A DNA stretch of 64,000 nt from a virus. Taxonomy: Duplodnaviria; Heunggongvirae; Uroviricota; Caudoviricetes. Location: positions 53,823 through 117,822 of IMG/VR virus record IMGVR_UViG_3300021256_000058; one strand, 5' to 3'. Shown here piece after piece: positions 1-8,162 of the stretch. How positions within the stretch are numbered: the stretch's first letter is position 1; each line of letters opens with the position of its first letter. The notes under the pieces are model-generated. The model was given only the letters and a program-made list of their open reading frames with translations. It was not told the origin of the DNA and did not search any database. The position numbers and the translations under genes are program-made.

Positions 1-90
1 TTCGTCCCAGCACTCGACGATTCCATCGCCGCCGTTTTCGTAGTTCTTGAGAGCCAGCTTGTAAAATTCTTTCCATGTGAGCTCTTTCAT
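1..90 (-). CDS. Early hypothetical protein, N-terminal 30 aa only (MKELTWKEFYKLALKNYENGGDGIVECWDE...), runs off the window edge
   Basis: ATG at 90 with AAGGAG SD, downstream of a TTGACA(148-153)-N17-TACAAT(125-130) promoter; read manually, not in the ORF track. Confidence 0.75.
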   Translation of the reverse strand, partial: MKELTWKEFYKLALKNYENGGDGIVECWDE

Positions 91-134
91 TTTTGTATCT
101 CCTTTTCTCTTGATTTCTATAGGTATTGTATCAC

Positions 135-164
135 AAAAAGGGCTTGTTGTCAAGCCCTTTTTTT
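135..164. terminator. Bidirectional intrinsic terminator whose loop and stem contain the next -35 hexamer
   Basis: AAAAAGGGCTTG-TTGT-CAAGCCCTTTTTTT. Confidence 0.75.
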
Positions 165-867
165 ACTTTTCGTAAAGTCCTTTTCTCATTTTCTTGTGCT
201 GTTTGAAGCAGTACGCAAGAATCACAGATTCAATTTCAACATCTTCAAGCCCGGTGTGAGACTCGGAAAAGTCCGGATTTTTGGTGATGAAGCTGTACAG
301 GACTTCAGCAGTTGCTTTCAGTCTTCCGGTTGCGGTGAAAAGTTCGTACTTTTCGCACCACTTGCGGAAAGTCGGCATTTTGTGAACAACGTCACGAGCC
401 ATTTTCATCGTGTCCCACCATTCAGTACCGAACGGGAACCAGTAACGCTGTGCGGATTTGGTAACATAGCGGAGTGTAACATCGAGAGCGTTCTTGTCAA
501 ACCGTGCATTGTGAGCGCAAACAAATTTCACGTTGTAGGTTTTCATGTCCTCAAGCATGGTCTTTCTGATTGTTGCGGTCGTGGCAAGAATCCGGCGGCC
601 TGCCTTGATGTCTTCCCAATACTGGGGGATTTTCTTGGCGTAGTATGCAGTTTTCATCAGTTCCTTTTCATCGAGAAAGATGTCTGCATTCACGAATGAA
701 CGGCGTAGATACACATTCCCGCGCTTGTCAATGATCTGCCAACCGCAGTCATATACGAGCACGCAGCTCATGTCCATTTTTCCGGTCTCATCGACCTGAG
801 TGTTGGCGGTCTCGGTATCGAGGTCAAGGATGTGGGTGATACGCTTGTCGATCTTGTTAGCAGTCAT
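163..867 (-). CDS. DEDDh (DnaQ-like) 3'-5' exonuclease
   Basis: Motifs DLDTET, HNARFD and H..LEDVE. True start is MTANKIDK at 867 after AAGGAG; the track extension to 927 runs through the promoter. Confidence 0.8.
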   Translation of the reverse strand: MTANKIDKRITHILDLDTETANTQVDETGKMDMSCVLVYDCGWQIIDKRGNVYLRRSFVNADIFLDEKELMKTAYYAKKIPQYWEDIKAGRRILATTATIRKTMLEDMKTYNVKFVCAHNARFDKNALDVTLRYVTKSAQRYWFPFGTEWWDTMKMARDVVHKMPTFRKWCEKYELFTATGRLKATAEVLYSFITKNPDFSESHTGLEDVEIESVILAYCFKQHKKMRKGLYEK

Positions 868-956
868 TGTTTTGTTCTCCTTTGTTCTTTGTGACTTTAG
901 TATACCACAGCTTTTGGTATTTGTCAAGCACTTTTTTCATTTTTTTTATTTTTTTT

Positions 957-1046
957 GAGAGAGGAAGGCGCTTGACCGAAATTTGTATAGCGCATCCGCG
1001 TTTCCCAGAGGGGCGTTCTCTCTTTGAACTATCTCCCTCTCTCTAT
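957..1046 (-). ncRNA. Candidate ~90-nt structured small RNA
   Basis: Own promoter (-35 at 1075-1080, -10 TATTAT at 1052-1057). 5' GAGAGAGG pairs with 3' CCTCTCTC; internal hairpins GTTC/GAAC, CCC/GGG and GCGCT/AGCGC; no ATG after the SD-like GGGAG. Confidence 0.55.
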
Positions 1047-1167
1047 GTATTATAATACCACTTTTGGGAGTGAATGTCAACACTTTTTTCTTCGTCAAAT
1101 TGCACAAAAAATCAGTATGCTGCATTTCTGGCCAAAAACCGGCCGCGTGGGACGTGCGCGGCCGGCC

Positions 1168-1194
1168 AAAAAAATGCCCGACCTTTCGTCGGGC
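1168..1194 (-). terminator. Intrinsic terminator of the ~320-nt RNA unit
   Basis: GCCCGAC-GAAAG-GTCGGGC followed by ATTTTTTT on the minus strand. Confidence 0.8.
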
Positions 1195-1493
1195 TGGGAG
1201 TTCTGTGGTGACTTCCACACCGGATTATTTCGCATACCGCGCGTCGCTTGGATTTCGGGGAGCGAACCCCCGCCGCACATCTGGGCTGCGGATCACCCAA
1301 AGGGCTAAGCCCTGGTGCTGACCCTGCCACTTCAGGCCAGCCTGCCCCGTATTCCTTAGGCGCCCCGTTGGTGGCGGGCCAAAGGCGCCCCGCATCTCTG
1401 CGGTACTCCCGCCCAGTATTTTTGTCATCGCGCCCGCGGAACGGCGCTCCAGTATGAACTTGTCGCATCGTGGTGTCTCATCTCCCTTCGATG
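1168..1493 (-). ncRNA. Candidate ~320-nt GC-rich, highly structured non-coding RNA
   Basis: Perfect TTGACA(1522-1527)-N17-TATAAT(1499-1504) promoter and intrinsic terminator at 1168-1194. Many hairpins; no credible ORF fully inside the unit. Confidence 0.65.
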
Positions 1494-1561
1494 GTTTAAT
1501 TATAGCACTTGCGGCTTGATTTGTCAAGACTTTTTTTCAATTTCCGCAATTTTTTTTCGGC

Positions 1562-1735
1562 TCAGCCAATCGACCACGTGGGTCGCTCGGCCTTGTTGCG
1601 GGAGCCGTCCGCCTTGAAGAACCACATGGCGGTGTAATCGCCGTGGCGGAGAATGGTGATGAGGCCGAGGCGGGAGACCTCGTACCCGCGCCGCGTCATG
1701 GCGGCTTCGAAGCGTTCGCGTTCAGTCATGTTCAT
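1562..1735 (-). CDS. Early hypothetical protein (57 aa)
   Basis: AAGGAGG SD; own promoter (-35 at 1801-1806, -10 at 1778-1783); TGA stop. Confidence 0.75.
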   Translation of the reverse strand: MNMTERERFEAAMTRRGYEVSRLGLITILRHGDYTAMWFFKADGSRNKAERPTWSIG

Positions 1736-1984
1736 GACCTCCTTGAGAAGTGTTCTGTTCCCCTCGGAACTGTATACATGATACCACACAAATGCCGATC
1801 TGTCAATCCCCCAAGTGCATCCTTAACAATTTGTTCATAATTAATAATTATTCATTTTTCGGGAATAATTATACATTAATTACAATCGTGCTTTTTGTTG
1901 TAAAAAATTGTAACCGATTTGTAACCGCGAAATTCGCCGCGGTACGCCCGAGGGCGCGGCGCCAAAAAAAAGACCCCGACTGCA

Positions 1985-2290
1985 TCAGCAGTCGAAGTCG
2001 TAGCAACCCTCGTACGGGTTGAACCCGAATTCGAGGTCCCAGTCCGAGGGCTCGTCATCCTCGGGTTCTTCCTCATCCTCGGCCCCGCCGAAGGTGGACT
2101 CCCAGCAGGTGGGGCAGATGCCGGAGACAAGCGCCTCGCGCTCATTGGCGGAGAGGTAGGGGAAAGCGTCCTGCACGAGGACACCGTCCTGCCAATCGAG
2201 GTAATCGGCCTCGTTGACCTCGACCTCATTGGCACGCCCGCAGAAGGGGCAACGGGTGATGATGGTGACTTCCTTGTGATTAATCTTCAT
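1985..2290 (-). CDS. Zinc-binding protein (CPFC...CPTC) with acidic C-terminal tail
   Basis: Two CxxC pairs; AAGGAG SD; own promoter (-35 at 2346-2351). Confidence 0.8.
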   Translation of the reverse strand: MKINHKEVTIITRCPFCGRANEVEVNEADYLDWQDGVLVQDAFPYLSANEREALVSGICPTCWESTFGGAEDEEEPEDDEPSDWDLEFGFNPYEGCYDFDC

Positions 2291-2347
2291 TTTCGTATCT
2301 CCTTTTCTTTCTTTGTGAGTTAAGTATACCACAGGTTTCGGGATTTG

Positions 2348-2785
2348 TCAAGAGATTTTTTTCAAAATCTCCAAAATATTTTCGACTCCGTAGGCGTTGC
2401 CCGTCCACTCGGTGCGGTTGCGCTCTTCATCGTCAAACAGGATGTCCTCGGCGGACTCCGCAAAATTGGCTTTGCAGGTTCCGTACTTCACGATGTTGAT
2501 TTCATCAAACTGCACAGACCGCAGGTGCTTTTTGAGCCAAGCCTTTTTGACCTCGGTGACTCTTGCGTTGTAGTCCTCAGAGCCGGACTTGCTGAGCCAA
2601 GAGATGACCACAATCTTGTGGCCCTGCGCCTGCAGGCGGTTCAGCACTCTTGCAAGGCTGTTCATGTTCAGCATGACTTTTGCGTCCGCATAGGGCTTTA
2701 CATCCTCAGCGATGAGGTACTGGAGCCAGTTTTCGACTCCGTAGAGGTTAGCGATGGTTCCGTCCATGTCAAAGCAGATCTTCAT
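2348..2785 (-). CDS. HAD-superfamily phosphatase, 5'(3')-deoxyribonucleotidase (NT5C)-like
   Basis: N-terminal FDMDGT motif I, K..W.KKH, and ILFDD motif IV. Confidence 0.75.
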   Translation of the reverse strand: MKICFDMDGTIANLYGVENWLQYLIAEDVKPYADAKVMLNMNSLARVLNRLQAQGHKIVVISWLSKSGSEDYNARVTEVKKAWLKKHLRSVQFDEINIVKYGTCKANFAESAEDILFDDEERNRTEWTGNAYGVENILEILKKIS

Positions 2786-2835
2786 GTTTTTTAGCTCCTT
2801 TGTTTCTTTCTGAGTATAGTATAGCAGATAAACCA

Positions 2836-3246
2836 TTAATTGTCAAGAGTTTTTTTCACAAAAACTAAATATTTTTCGCAAACAGTTTTTTGATACTTAA
2901 AGCCGCGCTTTTGAAGCAAAGCCAACATTGCGACATTTTCAGCCCATGGCGTGCAACCATAGCAACCAAGATTAAGCGCAAGCGCATAGTCAAACAGGGC
3001 GGACATGATGCCCTTGCCGCGGTTTTTCTTGTTGTACACACAGCCGCGCTTTAAACCTGTGTAGCCGTGAGAAGTGGGAACAACCGCAAGAGAGCCAAGG
3101 ATGCGCGCCCCATCAACCGCAACCAGCAGGCAACCTGCATCAATGTCGGCTTTTGCCTGTTGTGTTGTATTAAAATCCATGCGCTTGTTCTGGAGTCCGC
3201 GAACCACGGACAGCTTGTCGGCCTGTGTTGCAAAACGAATCATCAT
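2836..3246 (-). CDS. GNAT-family acetyltransferase
   Basis: Acetyl-CoA motif A (NRGKGIMSALF) and C-terminal N..ML.LL.K.GF; own promoter (-35 at 3296-3301). Confidence 0.75.
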   Translation of the reverse strand: MMIRFATQADKLSVVRGLQNKRMDFNTTQQAKADIDAGCLLVAVDGARILGSLAVVPTSHGYTGLKRGCVYNKKNRGKGIMSALFDYALALNLGCYGCTPWAENVAMLALLQKRGFKYQKTVCEKYLVFVKKTLDN

Positions 3247-3406
3247 GTTACTTCCCTGCCTTTCTATTACACATTATAGCACTTTTGGGATCTCCTGTCA
3301 AGCCTTTTGCCTTCGTCATTTTGCACAAAAATTTCTGGTGGGAGTTAAATGCGCTAAACTCGCCGGCCCAGGACCGTGGGCCGCGCGCCAAAAAACGAGG
3401 CTCGGG

Positions 3407-3565
3407 TCACCAGACCCAAGCCCCTCGCTCGATCCATTCGCCAAGCGTTTCGGAGTAGTCCATCAGCTTGACCTCGATACGGTTCCGATACCATCCCATG
3501 GCCTCGCCGTGGTCCTGGGTGATCTCACCGGTTTCAGTGTTCATGTACCAAATGTGATTCTTCAT
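3407..3565 (-). CDS. Early hypothetical protein (52 aa)
   Basis: AAGGAG SD, own promoter (-35 at 3621-3626), TGA stop in a hairpin. Confidence 0.75.
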   Translation of the reverse strand: MKNHIWYMNTETGEITQDHGEAMGWYRNRIEVKLMDYSETLGEWIERGAWVW

Positions 3566-3636
3566 GTCTTGCATCTCCTTATCTCTTTTGTGACTTAAGT
3601 ATAACACAGGATTCGGGATTTGTCAATAGTTTTTTT

Positions 3637-3666
3637 AAAAAAAAGTCGCTTAGTTTCCTAAGCGAC
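3637..3666 (-). terminator. Intrinsic terminator containing the TAG stop of the ArfA-like gene
   Basis: Perfect 9-bp stem GTCGCTTAG-GAAA-CTAAGCGAC plus T8. Confidence 0.85.
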
Positions 3667-3795
3667 ACCCTGCTTGAACTTTTTGCGGTCATAGCTTCCC
3701 TTGCCCTTTTTACTCTTGAGATAGTACCCACGCTTGCGGAAAGCCATGAACTGTTCAAGCGTTTCCTTGTCCATCTTGTTAATACGTTTATCCAT
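3658..3795 (-). CDS. arfA: ArfA-like (alternative ribosome-rescue factor A) basic peptide, 45 aa under code 11
   Basis: FRKR....KSKKGKGSYDRKK resembles E. coli ArfA FRQR..KNKKGKGSYMRK at a similar position and length. AAAGGA SD, own promoter (-35 at 3850-3855); stop is TAG at 3658-3660. Motif recognition only, no HMM was run. Confidence 0.6.
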   Translation of the reverse strand: MDKRINKMDKETLEQFMAFRKRGYYLKSKKGKGSYDRKKFKQGVA

Positions 3796-3873
3796 CGACC
3801 GCACATCCTTTCTTGATTGTAAGCTAATTATACTACATCTTTTGGTGTTTGTCAAGGGGGAAGAGAAGATTTT

Positions 3874-4023
3874 TTATCTTCCCTTCCATTCCTGCATGTT
3901 GGCCAGAATGACCATCAGCATGGACTCGCTGAAAGCGTTTTCAAACTGTTCCGGAGTCTGGCCGCCGGGGATCTTGTAACCGAGACTGACAAGTTGATTA
4001 ATGATGTTTCTCTTTGCGCTCAT
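3874..4023 (-). CDS. Early hypothetical protein (49 aa, MSAKRNIINQLVSLGYKIPGG...)
   Basis: Read manually (below the track cutoff); AAGGAG SD, own promoter (-35 at 4077-4082), TAA stop. Confidence 0.75.
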   Translation of the reverse strand: MSAKRNIINQLVSLGYKIPGGQTPEQFENAFSESMLMVILANMQEWKGR

Positions 4024-4090
4024 GGTATTATCTCCTTTTCAATTTCTATAGTAATTATAACAAATTTTTTTTAAATTGTCAAGAGTTTTT

Positions 4091-4336
4091 TTAACCCCAA
4101 ATCTTAATGCAGATTTTTTCTTTCAAAGTCTTTTCTTTCCTACGGAAACCTGTAAAGTTTTCATTTGCTTCAATCATTCCCGTCTTTGCCATCTCCGCAG
4201 CGACTGCATCAATTTCTTCGGGAGTAAATTGAGAGAACCAAGAATCTTTGTATGCCCACCAGAGCCAAGAATGCCAAGCAAGATCGCTGTTTTTCAGAAG
4301 ATTATAGATCCTCATGACCATTTCATTGTTTTCCAT
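4091..4336 (-). CDS. Early hypothetical protein (81 aa, Trp-rich)
   Basis: ORF track; own promoter (-35 at 4388-4393). Confidence 0.75.
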   Translation of the reverse strand: MENNEMVMRIYNLLKNSDLAWHSWLWWAYKDSWFSQFTPEEIDAVAAEMAKTGMIEANENFTGFRRKEKTLKEKICIKIWG

Positions 4337-4422
4337 TTTTGTTCACCCCTTACCTTTCGACTATAGTATAGCGCATTTGGGTGTAAATGTCAAGAACTTT
4401 TTTTAAAAAAGAGGGACTTTTT

Positions 4423-4701
4423 TCAAAGTTCCTCTTTTTCCCAGTTAAGACGATAACCGCCGAACTTAAAAGTTCCCGCCTTTTTGAAATACTTCAAATA
4501 GATGTATTCAAAGGGATTGTGAATGAAGCGAATCCCGCACGGGCTATCCTCACGGTCATCCACCAAAAGCCGGAGCTTGTCAGGGGCATAGCCAGATTTT
4601 AAAGCGCCCTTTGGGTTGCGGATTGCGCGAGGACTGTAAAAATAGTAGTACACAGGGAAGTCAAAAGTATCAATGCATTTCAGTTCGTAGAATCCAGACA
4701 T
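4423..4701 (-). CDS. Early hypothetical protein (92 aa)
   Basis: AAGGAG SD; the only gene of the array with no consensus promoter of its own. Confidence 0.7.
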   Translation of the reverse strand: MSGFYELKCIDTFDFPVYYYFYSPRAIRNPKGALKSGYAPDKLRLLVDDREDSPCGIRFIHNPFEYIYLKYFKKAGTFKFGGYRLNWEKEEL

Positions 4702-4736
4702 TTTTTTTCTCCTTTGTTATTCTTTGATGGGACTTT

Positions 4737-4862
4737 TTACAGTCCCATCTTGCGCCGCCACTCGATGTAAGTGGCTTCGGAAACGACCTCATAACCGCCG
4801 AACTTGGGGAGGCACTCGACCTCATAGACCTGACCAGTGATAGTGGAACGAATGTACATCAT
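4737..4862 (-). CDS. Early hypothetical protein (41 aa)
   Basis: AAGGAG SD; promoter -35 at 4922-4927; the track extension runs through the promoter. Confidence 0.7.
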   Translation of the reverse strand: MMYIRSTITGQVYEVECLPKFGGYEVVSEATYIEWRRKMGL

Positions 4863-5046
4863 GTTGTGTATCTCCTTCTCTTTTGTTTTCTTGAGTATAG
4901 TATAGCACTTTCGGGAGCGTTTGTCAAGCCTTTTGGTTTCGTCAAATTGCACAAAATTTTGCGGTTAGTAGTATTCTGGCGAAAATCGGCGCGCCAGGTC
5001 CGACCGCGCGCCGCCGAATGAATAAAAATGCAAAAAAGAGTGAAGC

Positions 5047-5268
5047 TCAGAAGAGCTTCACATCTTCGGCCTTGGCGTACCGAGTGGAGAGGAACAGGCC
5101 AGCGGTGCAGTAGACCTCGTGCCGGGGTTCCTTCTCGCCCTCGATGACCGTGCGGTAGATGGCCGCATGGAGTTCGGTGGCCTTGGCTTTGGCCTGCTTC
5201 CAAGCCTCGCCCCAAGCAGTCTCACCGACGAACTCATAACCCGCAACCTCGTAAACGAACTTTTTCAT
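5047..5268 (-). CDS. Early hypothetical protein (73 aa)
   Basis: AAGGAG SD; promoter -35 at 5331-5336. Confidence 0.75.
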   Translation of the reverse strand: MKKFVYEVAGYEFVGETAWGEAWKQAKAKATELHAAIYRTVIEGEKEPRHEVYCTAGLFLSTRYAKAEDVKLF

Positions 5269-5376
5269 GTTTTAGATCTCCTTTCGTATCTCTTGTTTAC
5301 ACTTAGGATTATACATGATAAATTGATTTTTGTCAATACCTTTTTTGCATTTTCTCAAACTTTTTTCAAGGGAAGA

Positions 5377-5778
5377 TCAGAAGATCTTCCCGCCCTTGGT
5401 CTCTACGAAGATCGCTTCGTGTCCGGCCTTGGTCCACTGACGGATGTTTTTCACATCATCGTCAACAAGGATGCCGTCCTCGCGGATGAAGTCAACCTTG
5501 CGGCCAGAGCCTACGATGCAGATGAACTGCTCGGCGGTCAGCTCGGGGATGAACTTCGCCAGCCAGTCAATCTTGCCGGCCTTGCCGTCTTCATTGGCGG
5601 CCTTGGTCAGGATGTAAACCTGAGCACCAGCAGCGATGAGGGAACGGACTGCGGAAACGTTCTCTGCGAACGGCTCAAGGTTTGCCATCGCGTCACGCTT
5701 GAGAGCCACGCCGCGGTCAAGAGCAAAAGCCTTGTGAAAGTTAGCCAGAACGCCGTCCATGTCGAAGTAGTAAGTCAT
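5377..5778 (-). CDS. Second HAD-superfamily NT5C-like nucleotidase
   Basis: FDMDGV motif I, K..WL.KF, and ILVDD motif IV; promoter -35 at 5838-5843. Confidence 0.75.
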   Translation of the reverse strand: MTYYFDMDGVLANFHKAFALDRGVALKRDAMANLEPFAENVSAVRSLIAAGAQVYILTKAANEDGKAGKIDWLAKFIPELTAEQFICIVGSGRKVDFIREDGILVDDDVKNIRQWTKAGHEAIFVETKGGKIF

Positions 5779-6024
5779 CTGAGTGATCCCCTTTCTTGTC
5801 CCTTTCTGATACTGATTATACGCTCCTTTTTGCGATTTGTCAATACCCTTTTTCACATTTTTCTAAATTTTTTTATCTTTCTTTTTTGGGAAAAACTCTG
5901 CTTTTGCTTCGTCCGTTCGTTCGCTCTCTCTTTTTGCTGATGGTTGTATTTGCCGATAATTCGGCGCGCCACCACCGTGCGCGCGCCAGCGTGGCCCTTC
6001 ACGCAAAGAAAAAGGCTTGACCCT

Positions 6025-6144
6025 TTAGGCCAAGCCATTCTCTACTGCCCATGCGTACATGGCATCCATCTCTTCCTCTGTTGGTGCTGCTTGCTCCATC
6101 GTGCGCATGTCCTGCTCGTAGTTCATCAGATCGTTGTAGCTCAT
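6025..6144 (-). CDS. Small acidic early protein (39 aa)
   Basis: AAGGAG SD; promoter -35 at 6201-6206. Confidence 0.65.
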   Translation of the reverse strand: MSYNDLMNYEQDMRTMEQAAPTEEEMDAMYAWAVENGLA

Positions 6145-6214
6145 TGTGTGTATCTCCTTTGTTCTCTTGATGGTTGTATTATAACACATGTTGTGCGTCT
6201 TGTCAAGATTTTTT

Positions 6215-6800
6215 TTATTCTTTCTCTCTTTATCTCTCTGTGTGTTGTTGTACTGTTGCTGTTGTGTCTCTCTCTGTCTGTCTGTGTGTATAGCACAACA
6301 CACAGCCTTTGTGTTTGGCTGTGTGCCTCTCTCTGTCAGCGTACCATCAGCACGCCAGTGACTACGTCGTCTGTTACATCTTCTGTGCCCAGTGTGTCGA
6401 AGGTCACAATGTAGTGTGCATCTACATCCACCCAAGAGCCAACCACTTCCCACAGGTTACCATCTGTGTCCTCGAACACAGTCACATCATCATAGCTCTC
6501 ATAGATCACACACTCTCTCTCAATGTGTGTCTCTGCTTGCGGTCTGCTGTTGGTGCAAGCTACGATACCTACAATAGCTGCGATGAATACCATGCACACC
6601 AACACCACGATTACGCTGAACCTGTAGCTCTGATACTGTCTGTCTGTCATTGTCTGTTGCTCCTTTACTCTTTGTCTTTGTGTATGTATTATAACACATT
6701 CATTGTGTCTTGTCAACACTTTTCTTTGTGTGTTGTTTGTTGTTGTTGTGTGTGTCTTTGTCTGTTGCTCTTGTGACTGTCTGCGTGGCCTTGCCTGCTT
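6215..6800. repeat. Low-complexity TG/TTG/CT/TCTG microsatellite-like tracts upstream of promoters (about 6215-6335 and 6717-6790)
   Basis: Examples: tgtgttgttgtactgttgctgttgtgtctctctctgtctgtctgtgtg and tgtgttgtttgttgttgttgtgtgtgtctttgtctg. Confidence 0.7.
6336..6650 (-). CDS. Membrane-anchored or exported protein (104 aa) with one N-terminal hydrophobic segment
   Basis: SVIVVLVCMVFIAAIVGIVAC hydrophobic stretch ending in Cys (possible lipoprotein); AAGGAG SD; promoter -35 at 6711-6716. Confidence 0.7.
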   Translation of the reverse strand: MTDRQYQSYRFSVIVVLVCMVFIAAIVGIVACTNSRPQAETHIERECVIYESYDDVTVFEDTDGNLWEVVGSWVDVDAHYIVTFDTLGTEDVTDDVVTGVLMVR

Positions 6801-6810
6801 GCCTAGCAGG

Positions 6811-6990
6811 TCACAGGTCTCGGTGGCGCCTACTAAAGAGCCTAAAGAGATGTTGCAAGTCTGATAAAATAACAAAATCAGCATTTGGATGCATTCTTTT
6901 CATCTCTGCTTCTGCTTGTTTGCGTGTGCGTGCTGCTAGTGAACACAAGCGCTTCATGCCTGGCTCTTTGTAAATGCCTACATAGCCCAT
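6811..6990 (-). CDS. First gene of the early array, basic 59-aa protein (MGYVGIYKEPGMKRLCSLAARTRKQAE...)
   Basis: Read manually; downstream of promoter -35 at 7046-7051 / -10 at 7023-7028; GAAAGGG SD-like sequence. Confidence 0.6.
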   Translation of the reverse strand: MGYVGIYKEPGMKRLCSLAARTRKQAEAEMKRMHPNADFVILSDLQHLFRLFSRRHRDL

Positions 6991-7430
6991 GTTGTGTTAC
7001 CCTTTCTTTTGGTGTATTGCTGAGTATAACACAGCTCGTGAGTTTTGTCAAGAGATTCTTTGTGTAAACTTTTGTAATTTTTTTGTTACTTTTCTTTGCC
7101 TGATGTGTTGTTTCAGGATGTTACAGCTTTGTAACTTTTGGTGCTTGGCCATTGCCAAAAAGCTGCAAGACTATTTTTTAGTAAAATTCTGCTCGCGTGG
7201 CCCGATCGCGAGCAGTCGAATTGGGCCTGTTAAAAGCTTTTGGGGCGGTGGCTGGCTGCTCGCTGCGAGAGGATCCTGCGAACCCCTGGAGTATCTTAAG
7301 CGTTTATTGGCGGGTGGTTTTTGGGATTTGAAATTTTTTCGAGAAGCCGAAAATTTTGCCCTGGCCCATATAATCCCCAAAACTATTTTTAATCTCGATC
7401 ACGAAGATCTCTATCCCGGAATCATCACGA

Positions 7431-7523
7431 TCACTTCTACAAAACTCTTACTAGAAAGAGGAAAAGTATTCCCCCACCTATAATTACGGGAAAAAAGAAA
7501 TTGGGTCCCTTCTTCCTCTTCAT
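7431..7523 (-). CDS. Small single-pass membrane peptide MKRKKGPNFFFPVIIGGGILFLFLVRVL(Q)K, 28 aa in code 11 or 30 aa in code 15
   Basis: GGAAGGAA SD-like sequence, basic N-terminus plus hydrophobic helix; ends TAG-AAG-TGA. Confidence 0.45.
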
Positions 7524-7561
7524 TTCCTTCCAAAATCTCTAATCCTCCCAAAAGCGAGGAG

Positions 7562-7897
7562 TTATTTTCCTCTGGTGATATTTTCCCAGTACTTCCATTT
7601 ATACATGCGGTAACATCCGCCCATCCACTTTTTCTGATGTTCTGCATCCCAGACTTCAACAATTGTTTCATCTGTATCTGGAGCCCATCTAATAATTTTT
7701 TTACCAATCTCAGGAGCATTATCAAAATTCCTCCACTTAGGTAGATGTTCCAAAAAATCTATTACTTCATAATAACATTCTTCACAAAGATCATAATCTG
7801 TCAGCTCCTCATGCGGAGGATCTTCAAAAAATAATCCATCTTGCGTTGTAAAAGGATGGCATTCTTTACCGCATCTATCACATTTCCAAATTCTCAT
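7562..7897 (-). CDS. Hypothetical protein with CxxC...CxxC zinc ribbon and Trp-rich C-terminus
   Basis: CDRC and CEEC motifs; GAGG SD. Confidence 0.7.
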   Translation of the reverse strand: MRIWKCDRCGKECHPFTTQDGLFFEDPPHEELTDYDLCEECYYEVIDFLEHLPKWRNFDNAPEIGKKIIRWAPDTDETIVEVWDAEHQKKWMGGCYRMYKWKYWENITRGK

Positions 7898-7904
7898 ACA
7901 TGCC

Positions 7905-8162
7905 TCACTCTATTCCGCCTGCCGGCCACAGCTCGTCATATTCTTCCCAAGGAGCCATTCCATTAACTTCTTTCTTTTTGCGCTCAAGCATTTTATTAAA
8001 GCTCTCCGCAATGATCTTTCTCAAGGCTTTATTTTCCAGCTCAAGATCATCAATCTGCTCCTCCATCCAATCAATTTCCTCATTAAGTCCATCAATTGTA
8101 CGGTGCAGATTATCCACTTCCCGCAGGTCCTCCATACAATCTTTATCTTTATTAGTATCCAT
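7905..8162 (-). CDS. Acidic coiled-coil protein (85 aa)
   Basis: Heptad-like I/L pattern; AAGGAG SD. Confidence 0.7.
   Translation of the reverse strand: MDTNKDKDCMEDLREVDNLHRTIDGLNEEIDWMEEQIDDLELENKALRKIIAESFNKMLERKKKEVNGMAPWEEYDELWPAGGIE

What the first reader, a model, noticed from the sequence alone, without database searches (positions are those of the whole stretch)
3595..3855. ArfA-like ribosome-rescue gene whose TAG stop sits inside its terminator: a possible genetic-code-state switch
Seen: of the 16 complete early genes (163-6990), this is the only one ending in TAG; all others use TAA/TGA. The TAG (3658-3660) forms part of the stem of a perfect terminator (GTCGCTTAG-GAAA-CTAAGCGAC-T8). 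Read as Gln, the frame continues through the hairpin, and the next stop (TAA 3595-3597) lies beyond the U-tract, so the terminated mRNA has no stop codon. The peptide carries the ArfA signature KKGKGSYxRK. Known: ArfA recruits RF2 for stop-independent release, and arfA/brfA are expressed from non-stop mRNAs that tmRNA tagging keeps low. Inference: under host code 11 a stable 45-aa factor is made early; after the switch to TAG=Gln the same mRNA becomes non-stop and the product is tmRNA-tagged. That would couple rescue-factor level to the code state. It could also help clear ribosomes stalled at UAG during the transition.
Basis: partly seen in the sequence, partly recalled or inferred. Interest (0 to 1): 0.92.

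Follow-up and report, generated by a model that had tools for sequence, protein, structure and literature searches.

The report
Phage ArfA-like gene ending in TAG
A rumen phage that later reads the stop codon TAG as glutamine has an early 45-residue gene related to the bacterial ribosome-rescue peptide ArfA, and this gene and many of its phage relatives end in TAG far more often than their neighbours do, so its output probably changes when the code switches; no experiment has tested this.

Summary
Window 3795..3661 (minus strand) encodes a 45-aa basic peptide with KKGKGSYDRK. Its TAG (3660-3658) lies in the 5' arm of a perfect 9-bp hairpin followed by T8. Read as Gln, the frame meets no stop before the U-tract.

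The peptide belongs to a large, mostly phage-borne ArfA-like family: 109 of 117 members hit Pfam ArfA, and a family profile finds only ArfA chains in the PDB. Members often sit inside phage tRNA arrays, some beside suppressor tRNAs.

- Stops buried in terminator hairpins are the rule in this early array.
- TAG-in-terminator is kept only in strain-level relatives. Relatives at 77-89% identity keep TAG but place the next gene's ATG 1-4 nt after it.
- About two thirds of homologues in other TAG-recoded phages end in TAA or TGA.

One family-level signal is real. TAG ends 31% of distinct family members against 4% of same-strand neighbour ORFs. It never changed in a 24-sequence clade whose synonymous sites changed 1-7 times each.

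The scan had already noted phage ArfA-like genes on other DNA. The TAG link is the new part. All function is inferred.

The parts
3827..3855 (-). Consensus sigma-70 promoter (TTGACA, 17 nt, TATAAT) of the gene
   Evidence: 12 of 12 matches in the promoter scan. It is one of 18 such promoters on the minus strand of 1-7100.
3806..3810 (-). Shine-Dalgarno-like AAGGA, 10 nt before the ATG
   Evidence: Read from the sequence.
3661..3795 (-). Coding sequence of the 45-aa ArfA-like peptide
   Evidence: Translation. Pfam ArfA E 0.0029. Family of 117 aligned members (A2), of which 109 hit ArfA.
3682..3711 (-). Codons for KKGKGSYDRK (residues 29-38), the ArfA signature
   Evidence: K30, G31, K32, G33 and S34 are invariant in 117 sequences. 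This stretch aligns to ArfA residues 25-49 of PDB chains 5mdv, 5mgp and 5u4i.
3658..3660 (-). TAG stop codon, the codon the phage reassigns to Gln in its late genes
   Evidence: It is kept in every relative of 77-100% identity whose DNA was read.
3637..3666 (-). Intrinsic terminator: 9-bp stem, GAAA loop, T8 tract (3644-3637)
   Evidence: The hairpin with TAG is conserved in L228/229 and L251-253.
3595..3657 (-). Frame open after TAG (20 codons plus TAA); it runs through the terminator and the next promoter and is not conserved as a frame
   Evidence: T-tract length varies between strains, so the frame meets TAA after 7 codons in L251-253 and after 20 here and in L228.
3598..3626 (-). Promoter of the next gene cassette (3565..3407)
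   Evidence: TTGACA, 17 nt, TATACT; 11 of 12 matches.

Best explanation
This is an early phage gene for a member of a phage-borne ArfA-like family.

Shown:
- It has a consensus host-type promoter, an SD, a 45-aa basic ORF and an intrinsic terminator.
- The C-terminal half carries the ArfA motif that, in solved ArfA-ribosome structures, lies in the empty mRNA channel.
- Relatives are common in large rumen and gut phages, often inside tRNA arrays.

Inferred from the family: the peptide binds ribosomes stalled at mRNA 3' ends and helps a release factor, most likely RF2, free them. This would keep ribosomes available during takeover. Later, amber suppression should drive ribosomes past host UAG stops and raise the load of non-stop complexes.

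Its stop is TAG, the one codon whose meaning this phage changes. Comparative data suggest that selection keeps TAG at the end of this gene.

Inferred consequence: under the host code RF1 ends the 45-aa form. Once the phage tRNA-CUA accumulates, a growing share of ribosomes read through.
- In this phage they would run to the 3' end of the terminated mRNA, a non-stop complex as with arfA and brfA. The product would then be tmRNA-tagged or released with about 8 extra residues.
- In most relatives they would add a short out-of-frame tail and run across the next gene's start.

So output of the native peptide would be tied to the code state. The non-stop route looks like a by-product of this phage's cassette layout, not the conserved design.
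For: ArfA likeness.

Family size: 152 loci and 351 cluster representatives at E<=1e-3.

Translation context: 33 of 118 distinct loci hold tRNA genes within 3 kb, and all 212 tRNAs are on the gene's strand. Suppressor tRNAs CUA, UUA or UCA lie within 3 kb in L029, L050, L051, L132, L141 and L022.

Anatomy.

Code state of the phage.

TAG enrichment:
- 37 of 118 distinct family genes end in TAG, against 32 of 819 same-strand neighbour ORFs in the same loci.
- The excess holds after collapsing to 90, 80 and 70% identity clusters: 24-26% against 4-7%, Fisher p 6e-9 to 3e-4.
- In recoded genomes only about 5% of otherwise TAG-free ORFs have a TAG near the end.

TAG conservation: in the 24-sequence VA/GV clade, 8 synonymous third positions changed 1-7 times (mean 4.4). 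The stop's third base changed 0 times.

Independent cases: three cluster representatives with a Q right after the domain all translate only with TAG=Q.

Literature:
- arfA and brfA are made from non-stop mRNAs formed at a hairpin or terminator and are held down by tmRNA. Nonsense suppression creates non-stop complexes (PMC8012679, PMC3985003).
- When UAG is not terminated, tmRNA destroys products of UAG-ending genes, whereas ArfA releases them untagged (PMC6207430).
- Some TAG-recoded phages encode RF2 (bioRxiv 10.1101/2021.08.26.457843).
Against: - The gene's own Pfam score (17.5 bits) is below the ArfA cut-off (25.5). Only the C-terminal half aligns; the N-terminal part that in ArfA contacts RF2 is not matched.
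- The phage has no release-factor gene of its own.
- TAG-in-terminator is limited to strain-level relatives.
- About two thirds of recoded relatives end the gene in TAA or TGA, and TAG also occurs in standard-code relatives (G013, G020, G031). No link between TAG and code state could be shown.
- The enrichment fades at 60% clustering (5 of 28, p 0.09).
- The 45-aa tree is weak, and neighbour ORFs were called by a simple rule.
- Stops inside terminator hairpins are general in this array.
Confidence: 0.5

Rival explanations
1. This is an ordinary early ArfA-like rescue gene and its TAG is incidental. Early genes are translated before the suppressor tRNA appears, so any stop will do. The hairpin was simply built around whatever stop was there, as at the neighbouring genes. 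The apparent family-wide excess of TAG is shared ancestry plus weak gene calls.
For: - Five of the 7 minus-strand terminators here enclose their gene's stop.
- Other TAG-ending ORFs exist in the same arm.
- Most recoded relatives use TAA or TGA.
- TAG shows no association with code state.
- Many TAG cases share a nearly identical DNA junction, so they are not independent.
- The enrichment is not significant at 60% clustering.
Against: - 31% against 4% TAG in the same loci, robust down to 70% clustering.
- At least nine C-terminal sequence groups carry TAG.
- There was no TAG-to-TAA change in a clade whose comparable A/G synonymous sites each changed 3-5 times.
- Spurious neighbour ORFs would raise the background TAG share, not lower it.
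Confidence: 0.3
2. The peptide binds ribosomes but is not a rescue factor. It keeps ArfA's channel-binding tail and has a different N-terminus, so it may occupy vacant mRNA channels without triggering release. That would block tmRNA-SmpB and host ArfA/BrfA-type factors, or mark or hold host ribosomes, for the phage's benefit.
For: - Only residues about 19-40 align with ArfA. The N-terminal helix (residues 10-21 in the AlphaFold model) has no detected match.
- ArfA is reported only from beta- and gamma-proteobacteria (PMC8012679), whereas the promoters, SD sequences and MAG labels here point to Bacillota hosts.
Against: - An FRxR stretch ahead of the motif, and the overall size and layout, match ArfA.
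- Placement in tRNA arrays suggests support of translation rather than inhibition.
- No evidence bears directly on either reading.
Confidence: 0.12

Closest known systems
ArfA (YhdL) of E. coli and other beta/gamma-proteobacteria; Pfam PF03889; PDB 5mdv, 5mgp, 5u4i, 5h5u
   Same: - A small basic peptide.
- The KKGKGSYxRK core preceded by FRxR, aligned to ArfA residues 25-49.
- A hairpin or terminator at the 3' end of the ORF.
- If TAG is read through, the mRNA is non-stop, as arfA mRNA is (PMC8012679).
   Different: - The N-terminal half is not detectably similar.
- The gene has a real stop codon (TAG) ahead of the U-tract, so under the standard code it is an ordinary mRNA.
- It is phage-borne, with likely Bacillota hosts.
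- Its score is below Pfam's cut-off.
BrfA (YqkK) of Bacillus subtilis
   Same: An RF2-dependent back-up rescue factor of a Bacillota host. It is made from an mRNA cut short by a rho-independent terminator before the stop and is held down by trans-translation (PMC8012679).
   Different: No sequence similarity was found or tested here, and BrfA lacks the KGKGSY motif (my own knowledge). The resemblance is in logic only.
Phage-encoded ArfA-like genes noted earlier in this scan on other genomes (e1-1850259, e1-3580223, e1-1694982, e1-5340219)
   Same: Tiny ArfA-family genes in large tRNA-rich phages. Some have a terminator inside or at the end of the ORF.
   Different: Those notes do not report a TAG stop in a TAG-recoded phage, nor a family-wide preference for TAG. 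One first-reader note (e1-5402211) mentions an ArfA-like ORF behind a single TAG.
Code-change toolkits of stop-recoded phages (suppressor tRNA, aaRS, RF1 or RF2; Borges et al., bioRxiv 10.1101/2021.08.26.457843)
   Same: Genes written in the standard code that are thought to manage the switch. RF2 is found in some TAG-recoded phages, and ArfA works through RF2.
   Different: That paper does not use the word 'rescue'. This phage has no RF gene.
prfB (RF2) autoregulation through an in-frame UGA
   Same: A translation-termination gene that carries, in its own message, the stop codon whose reading it depends on.
   Different: There the codon is internal and bypassed by a +1 frameshift, and the mechanism is proven. 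Here the codon is terminal and the idea is speculative.

Membership tests
ArfA (Pfam PF03889) | Score at or above Pfam's curated cut-off (25.5 bits) | tested here: not met
   17.5 bits, E 0.0029 for this protein. 109 of 117 family members hit at E<=0.01, best 3.8e-7, and one relative (P0020) carries the precomputed domain.
ArfA (Pfam PF03889) | KGKGSYxRK motif in a short basic C-terminal region, the part that occupies the empty mRNA channel | tested here: met
   KKGKGSYDRK at residues 29-38. K30, G31, K32, G33 and S34 are invariant in 117 sequences. The stretch aligns to ArfA PDB chains at E 2.6e-5 with no unrelated hit below E 0.1.
ArfA (Pfam PF03889) | N-terminal region that contacts and activates RF2 | tested here: inconclusive
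   HMM alignments start at about residue 19 (FRKR) and nothing upstream aligns. The complex prediction with B. subtilis RF2 gave no verdict.
ArfA (Pfam PF03889) | Made from a non-stop mRNA (hairpin or terminator inside the ORF) and regulated by tmRNA | tested here: not met
   Under code 11 the TAG precedes the U-tract, so the mRNA has a stop. Only with TAG=Gln does the ORF run through the terminator. Most relatives have no terminator there.
ArfA (Pfam PF03889) | RF2-dependent release on non-stop ribosomes; synthetic lethality with ssrA | not testable with these tools
   Needs biochemistry or genetics.
TAG=Gln (code 15) recoded phage, early code-neutral gene | Late genes full of in-frame TAG, a phage tRNA-CUA, and early genes free of internal TAG | tested here: met
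   None of the 16 early genes in the window has an internal TAG.

The most novel reading that the evidence does not exclude
The terminal UAG may be a built-in sensor, much as the in-frame UGA of prfB is for RF2. On this reading, selection across a whole family of phage ArfA-like genes keeps the one stop codon that only RF1 and the phage's own suppressor tRNA read. The yield of active rescue peptide, and in relatives translation of the coupled downstream gene, would then track how UAG is being decoded in the infected cell. That would make the gene a working part of the code-switch machinery of amber-recoded phages rather than a passenger.
Probability: 0.15. Interest if true: 0.85.

Novelty: new variant of a known kind. 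Interest (0 to 1): 0.6.

Why it matters
How stop-recoded phages cope with the transition from the host code to their own is an open question. Known toolkits list suppressor tRNAs, synthetases and release factors, but not rescue factors. Amber suppression is known to create non-stop ribosomes, and tmRNA is known to destroy products of UAG-ending genes when UAG is not terminated.

A phage-borne ArfA-like peptide that sits in tRNA and suppressor arrays would link ribosome rescue to code change. It ends, unusually often, in the very codon being reassigned. That offers a small, testable reporter of the switch.

If the TAG preference is only ancestry, this is simply one more phage ArfA-like gene.

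Tried and rejected
- Complex prediction of the peptide with B. subtilis RF2: no verdict, score 0.00.
- AlphaFold2 model: mean pLDDT 81, helices at 3-6, 10-21 and 37-42. Foldseek against the PDB found no match; a 45-aa peptide that folds on the ribosome is a poor query.
- NCBIfam: no hit. PHROGs: only weak hits to families of unknown function. Rfam on the whole window: nothing.
- GenBank phage records: no megablast match to 1-8000 and no tblastn match to the peptide.
- Own genome: no RF-1 domain and no PTH2. Aragorn run with tmRNA detection on listed no tmRNA.
- RNA-library contigs (X3, X4, X5, X8) cover 3668-4333 and none crosses the hairpin. However, they are assemblies, they stop at four different places, and no DNA run or silent stretch was laid. 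This is not usable as evidence for a 3' end or for expression.
- Link between a TAG stop and the recoded state: 6 of about 17 recoded genomes (own phage plus 5 relatives) against 3 of about 10 standard-code genomes (2 lineages). No signal. Metagenome records of further TAG cases are not held.
- A second viral scan with the larger alignment returned the same contigs, so there was no independent replicate.
- L073 first looked like an ORF running through a terminator. It is a palindrome around the -35 box of the next promoter.
- Pfam on the two flanking genes and on three other TAG-ending ORFs of the genome: nothing.

Full report
**What is there**

On the minus strand, a consensus promoter (TTGACA, 17 nt, TATAAT; 3855-3827) and an AAGGA box precede an ATG at 3795. 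The ORF (window:3661-3795:-) is 45 residues, very basic, and carries KKGKGSYDRK at residues 29-38.

It ends in TAG (3660-3658). That TAG forms the last three bases of the 5' arm of a perfect hairpin, GTCGCTTAG-GAAA-CTAAGCGAC, followed by T8. Past the TAG the frame stays open for 20 codons, through the U-tract and the next promoter, to TAA 3597-3595.

The window's minus-strand array (163-6990) has 16 complete genes. Their stops are TGA x9, TAA x6 and this one TAG.

**The phage**

- The window is part of a complete 181,822-bp genome with terminal repeats.
- From 8990 on, the plus strand is readable only with TAG as a sense codon. One ORF of 3099 aa has 57 TAGs.
- The genome has 33 tRNA genes, including a tRNA-CUA about 43 kb further down the same leftward arm.
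- It has no release-factor domain, no PTH2 and no tmRNA.
- Earlier notes of this scan reached the same reading of the code (e1-1678123, e1-5413036).

**Is it ArfA-like?**

- Alone, the peptide hits only Pfam ArfA, at E 0.0029 and 17.5 bits, below the 25.5-bit cut-off.
- It has many relatives: 21 by word search, 152 loci in viral, metagenome and MAG collections, and 351 cluster representatives at E<=1e-3 in an exhaustive profile search.
- Of 117 aligned members, 109 hit ArfA at E<=0.01, with best E 3.8e-7.
- The family profile finds only ArfA chains in the PDB (E 2.6e-5), aligned to ArfA residues 25-49.
- With the smaller profile, FRkR ahead of the motif also pairs with ArfA's FRQR.
- The N-terminal half, which in ArfA deals with RF2, is not matched.

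I therefore call it an ArfA-like family sharing the channel-binding half. Membership in the strict sense is not shown.

The contexts point to translation. 33 of 118 distinct loci hold tRNA genes within 3 kb, and 22 hold three or more. All 212 tRNAs are on the gene's strand. Suppressor tRNAs (CUA, UUA, UCA) lie within 3 kb in six loci.

**Is the TAG-in-terminator special?**

Not as a layout. Five of the seven minus-strand terminators in this array enclose their gene's stop codon. Any TAG-ended gene here would therefore become non-stop on read-through.

The hairpin with TAG is kept only in near-identical strains:
- L228/229 are 98% identical.
- L251-253 come from 50-180 kb contigs.
- T-tract length differs between them, so the read-through frame ends after 7 or 20 codons. 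The extension is thus not a conserved coding region.

The next relatives (77-89% identity: L230-235, L254-256) keep TAG but have no terminator. The next gene's ATG follows 1-4 nt later, with its SD inside the last codons.

**Is the TAG itself special?**

The comparative data favour this.
- Among 118 distinct family proteins the stops are TAA 55, TAG 37 and TGA 26.
- Same-strand neighbour ORFs in the very same loci end in TAG in 32 of 819 cases (3.9%), or 5.3% if long read-through cases are counted.
- After collapsing the family to 90, 80 or 70% identity clusters, TAG stays at 24-26% against 4-7% (Fisher p 6e-9 to 3e-4). At 60% clustering it is 5 of 28 (p 0.09).
- At least nine groups with different C-termini carry TAG. 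A parsimony count on a weak tree gives 17 changes between TAG and other stops.
- In the clade to which this gene belongs (24 distinct sequences ending ..VA or ..GV), eight synonymous third positions changed 1-7 times, and the four A/G sites 3-5 times. The third base of the stop never changed. With a Poisson mean near 4, zero changes has a chance of about 0.01-0.02.
- Three further cluster representatives with a Q just after the domain all proved to be TAG read as Gln by the gene caller.

**Does TAG go with recoding?**

I sampled 40-60 kb from each of 26 related viral genomes, plus more from four, and classed them by ORF gain under TAG=Gln and by suppressor tRNAs.

About 17 genomes, including this one, are TAG-recoded.
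- In six the ArfA-like gene ends in TAG: own, G002, G003, G006, G008 and G016.
- In eleven it ends in TAA or TGA.

About ten genomes use the standard code. Three of them (two lineages) end it in TAG.

So homologues in recoded phages do not uniformly keep TAG, and no link to code state is shown. In recoded genomes only about 5% of otherwise TAG-free ORFs have a TAG near their end (30 of 605). Six of 17 is therefore high, but the lineages are few.

**How it most likely works**

Shown: the anatomy, the family, its contexts and the TAG bias.

Inferred from ArfA biology (PMC8012679): the basic tail enters the vacant mRNA channel of a ribosome stalled at an mRNA end, and a release factor, probably RF2, frees the chain.

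This is plausible for a phage that will suppress UAG.
- Suppressor tRNAs push ribosomes past stops and create non-stop complexes (Ueda 2002, as cited in PMC3985003 and PMC8012679).
- When UAG is not terminated, tmRNA destroys the products of UAG-ending genes, whereas ArfA releases them untagged (PMC6207430).
- Some TAG-recoded phages even carry RF2 (10.1101/2021.08.26.457843); that paper does not mention rescue.

Inferred for the TAG: early on, RF1 ends the 45-aa form. Once tRNA-CUA is present, a share of ribosomes read through.
- In this phage they would reach the 3' end of the terminated RNA, giving arfA-style control.
- In relatives they would add a short tail and pass over the next start codon.

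I put 0.5 on this package. Within it, I put about 0.8 on 'ArfA-like ribosome binder', about 0.55 on 'TAG is selected', and about 0.25 on 'the non-stop route is itself a selected switch'.

**Rivals**

- TAG is incidental and the bias is ancestry (0.3).
- The peptide is a channel blocker rather than a rescuer (0.12).
- The boldest reading still open is a prfB-like sensor of UAG decoding (0.15).

**Novelty**

Phage ArfA-like genes were already noted in this scan on other DNA (e1-1850259, e1-3580223, e1-1694982, e1-5340219), and one ArfA-like ORF next to a TAG was noted too (e1-5402211). Amber-gated rescue-type hydrolase genes were also reported (e1-3292361, e1-1835197).

I found no paper that links ArfA-like genes with recoded phages. 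The new part is the TAG preference of this family and its placement beside suppressor tRNAs. I class it as a new variant of a known kind.

**Limits**

- Neighbour genes were called by a simple rule (SD plus longest ORF).
- The family tree rests on 45 residues.
- Code state rests on samples of each genome.
- Nothing here is experimental.

Noticed in passing
window 1-7100, minus strand: There are 18 near-consensus sigma-70 promoters (TTGACA, 17 nt, TATAAT), each driving one short gene. G+C is 43-49% here against 33-40% in the TAG-recoded late arm. The early array looks compositionally foreign to the rest of the genome.
   Followed up: partly
window about 1176-1527 and about 950-1080, minus strand: Two promoter-to-terminator units have no convincing ORF. 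One is G+C-rich and about 320 nt; the other is about 100 nt with a long terminal stem. Neither has an Rfam match. The first was also flagged by another first-reader note (e1-5413037).
   Followed up: no
L029, L050, L051, L132, L141, L022 (related phage contigs): ArfA-like genes sit inside phage tRNA arrays, with suppressor tRNAs within 3 kb. These include tRNA-UUA (L132, L141) and tRNA-UCA (L022) besides tRNA-CUA. L132 has both CUA and UUA.
   Followed up: partly
L078-L134, L230-L235: A nearly identical DNA junction, GAGGTGGCG-TAG-G-ATG, ends the ArfA-like gene and starts the next gene, yet the downstream genes differ between loci. This looks like a recombination joint or a conserved coupling signal.
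   Followed up: no
L053, L054, L056, L057 (around each gene's stop): At the same two codons after ..KKGV, relatives carry TAG TAG (L053, L057), TAG CAG (L054) or CAG TAA (L056). A TAG/CAG exchange at one site is the usual footprint of TAG=Gln.
   Followed up: no
own genome G000:C1 52986-53270, 31882-32646, 1302-1634 (outside the window): Three more ORFs of the leftward arm end in TAG, with 21, 3 and 8 further codons to the next TAA or TGA. None has a Pfam hit.
   Followed up: partly
family loci, base after the stop: The base after TAG is a purine in 30 of 37 cases (G in 20). After TAA or TGA it is a purine in 39 of 81. This may only reflect the ATG that follows.
   Followed up: no
L030, L039, L040, L042: In a standard-code lineage the last codons of the ArfA-like gene (..FDFPACA, then TAG) double as a promoter (TTGATT, 17 nt, TATAAT) for a tRNA-Val gene 21-24 nt downstream.
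   Followed up: no
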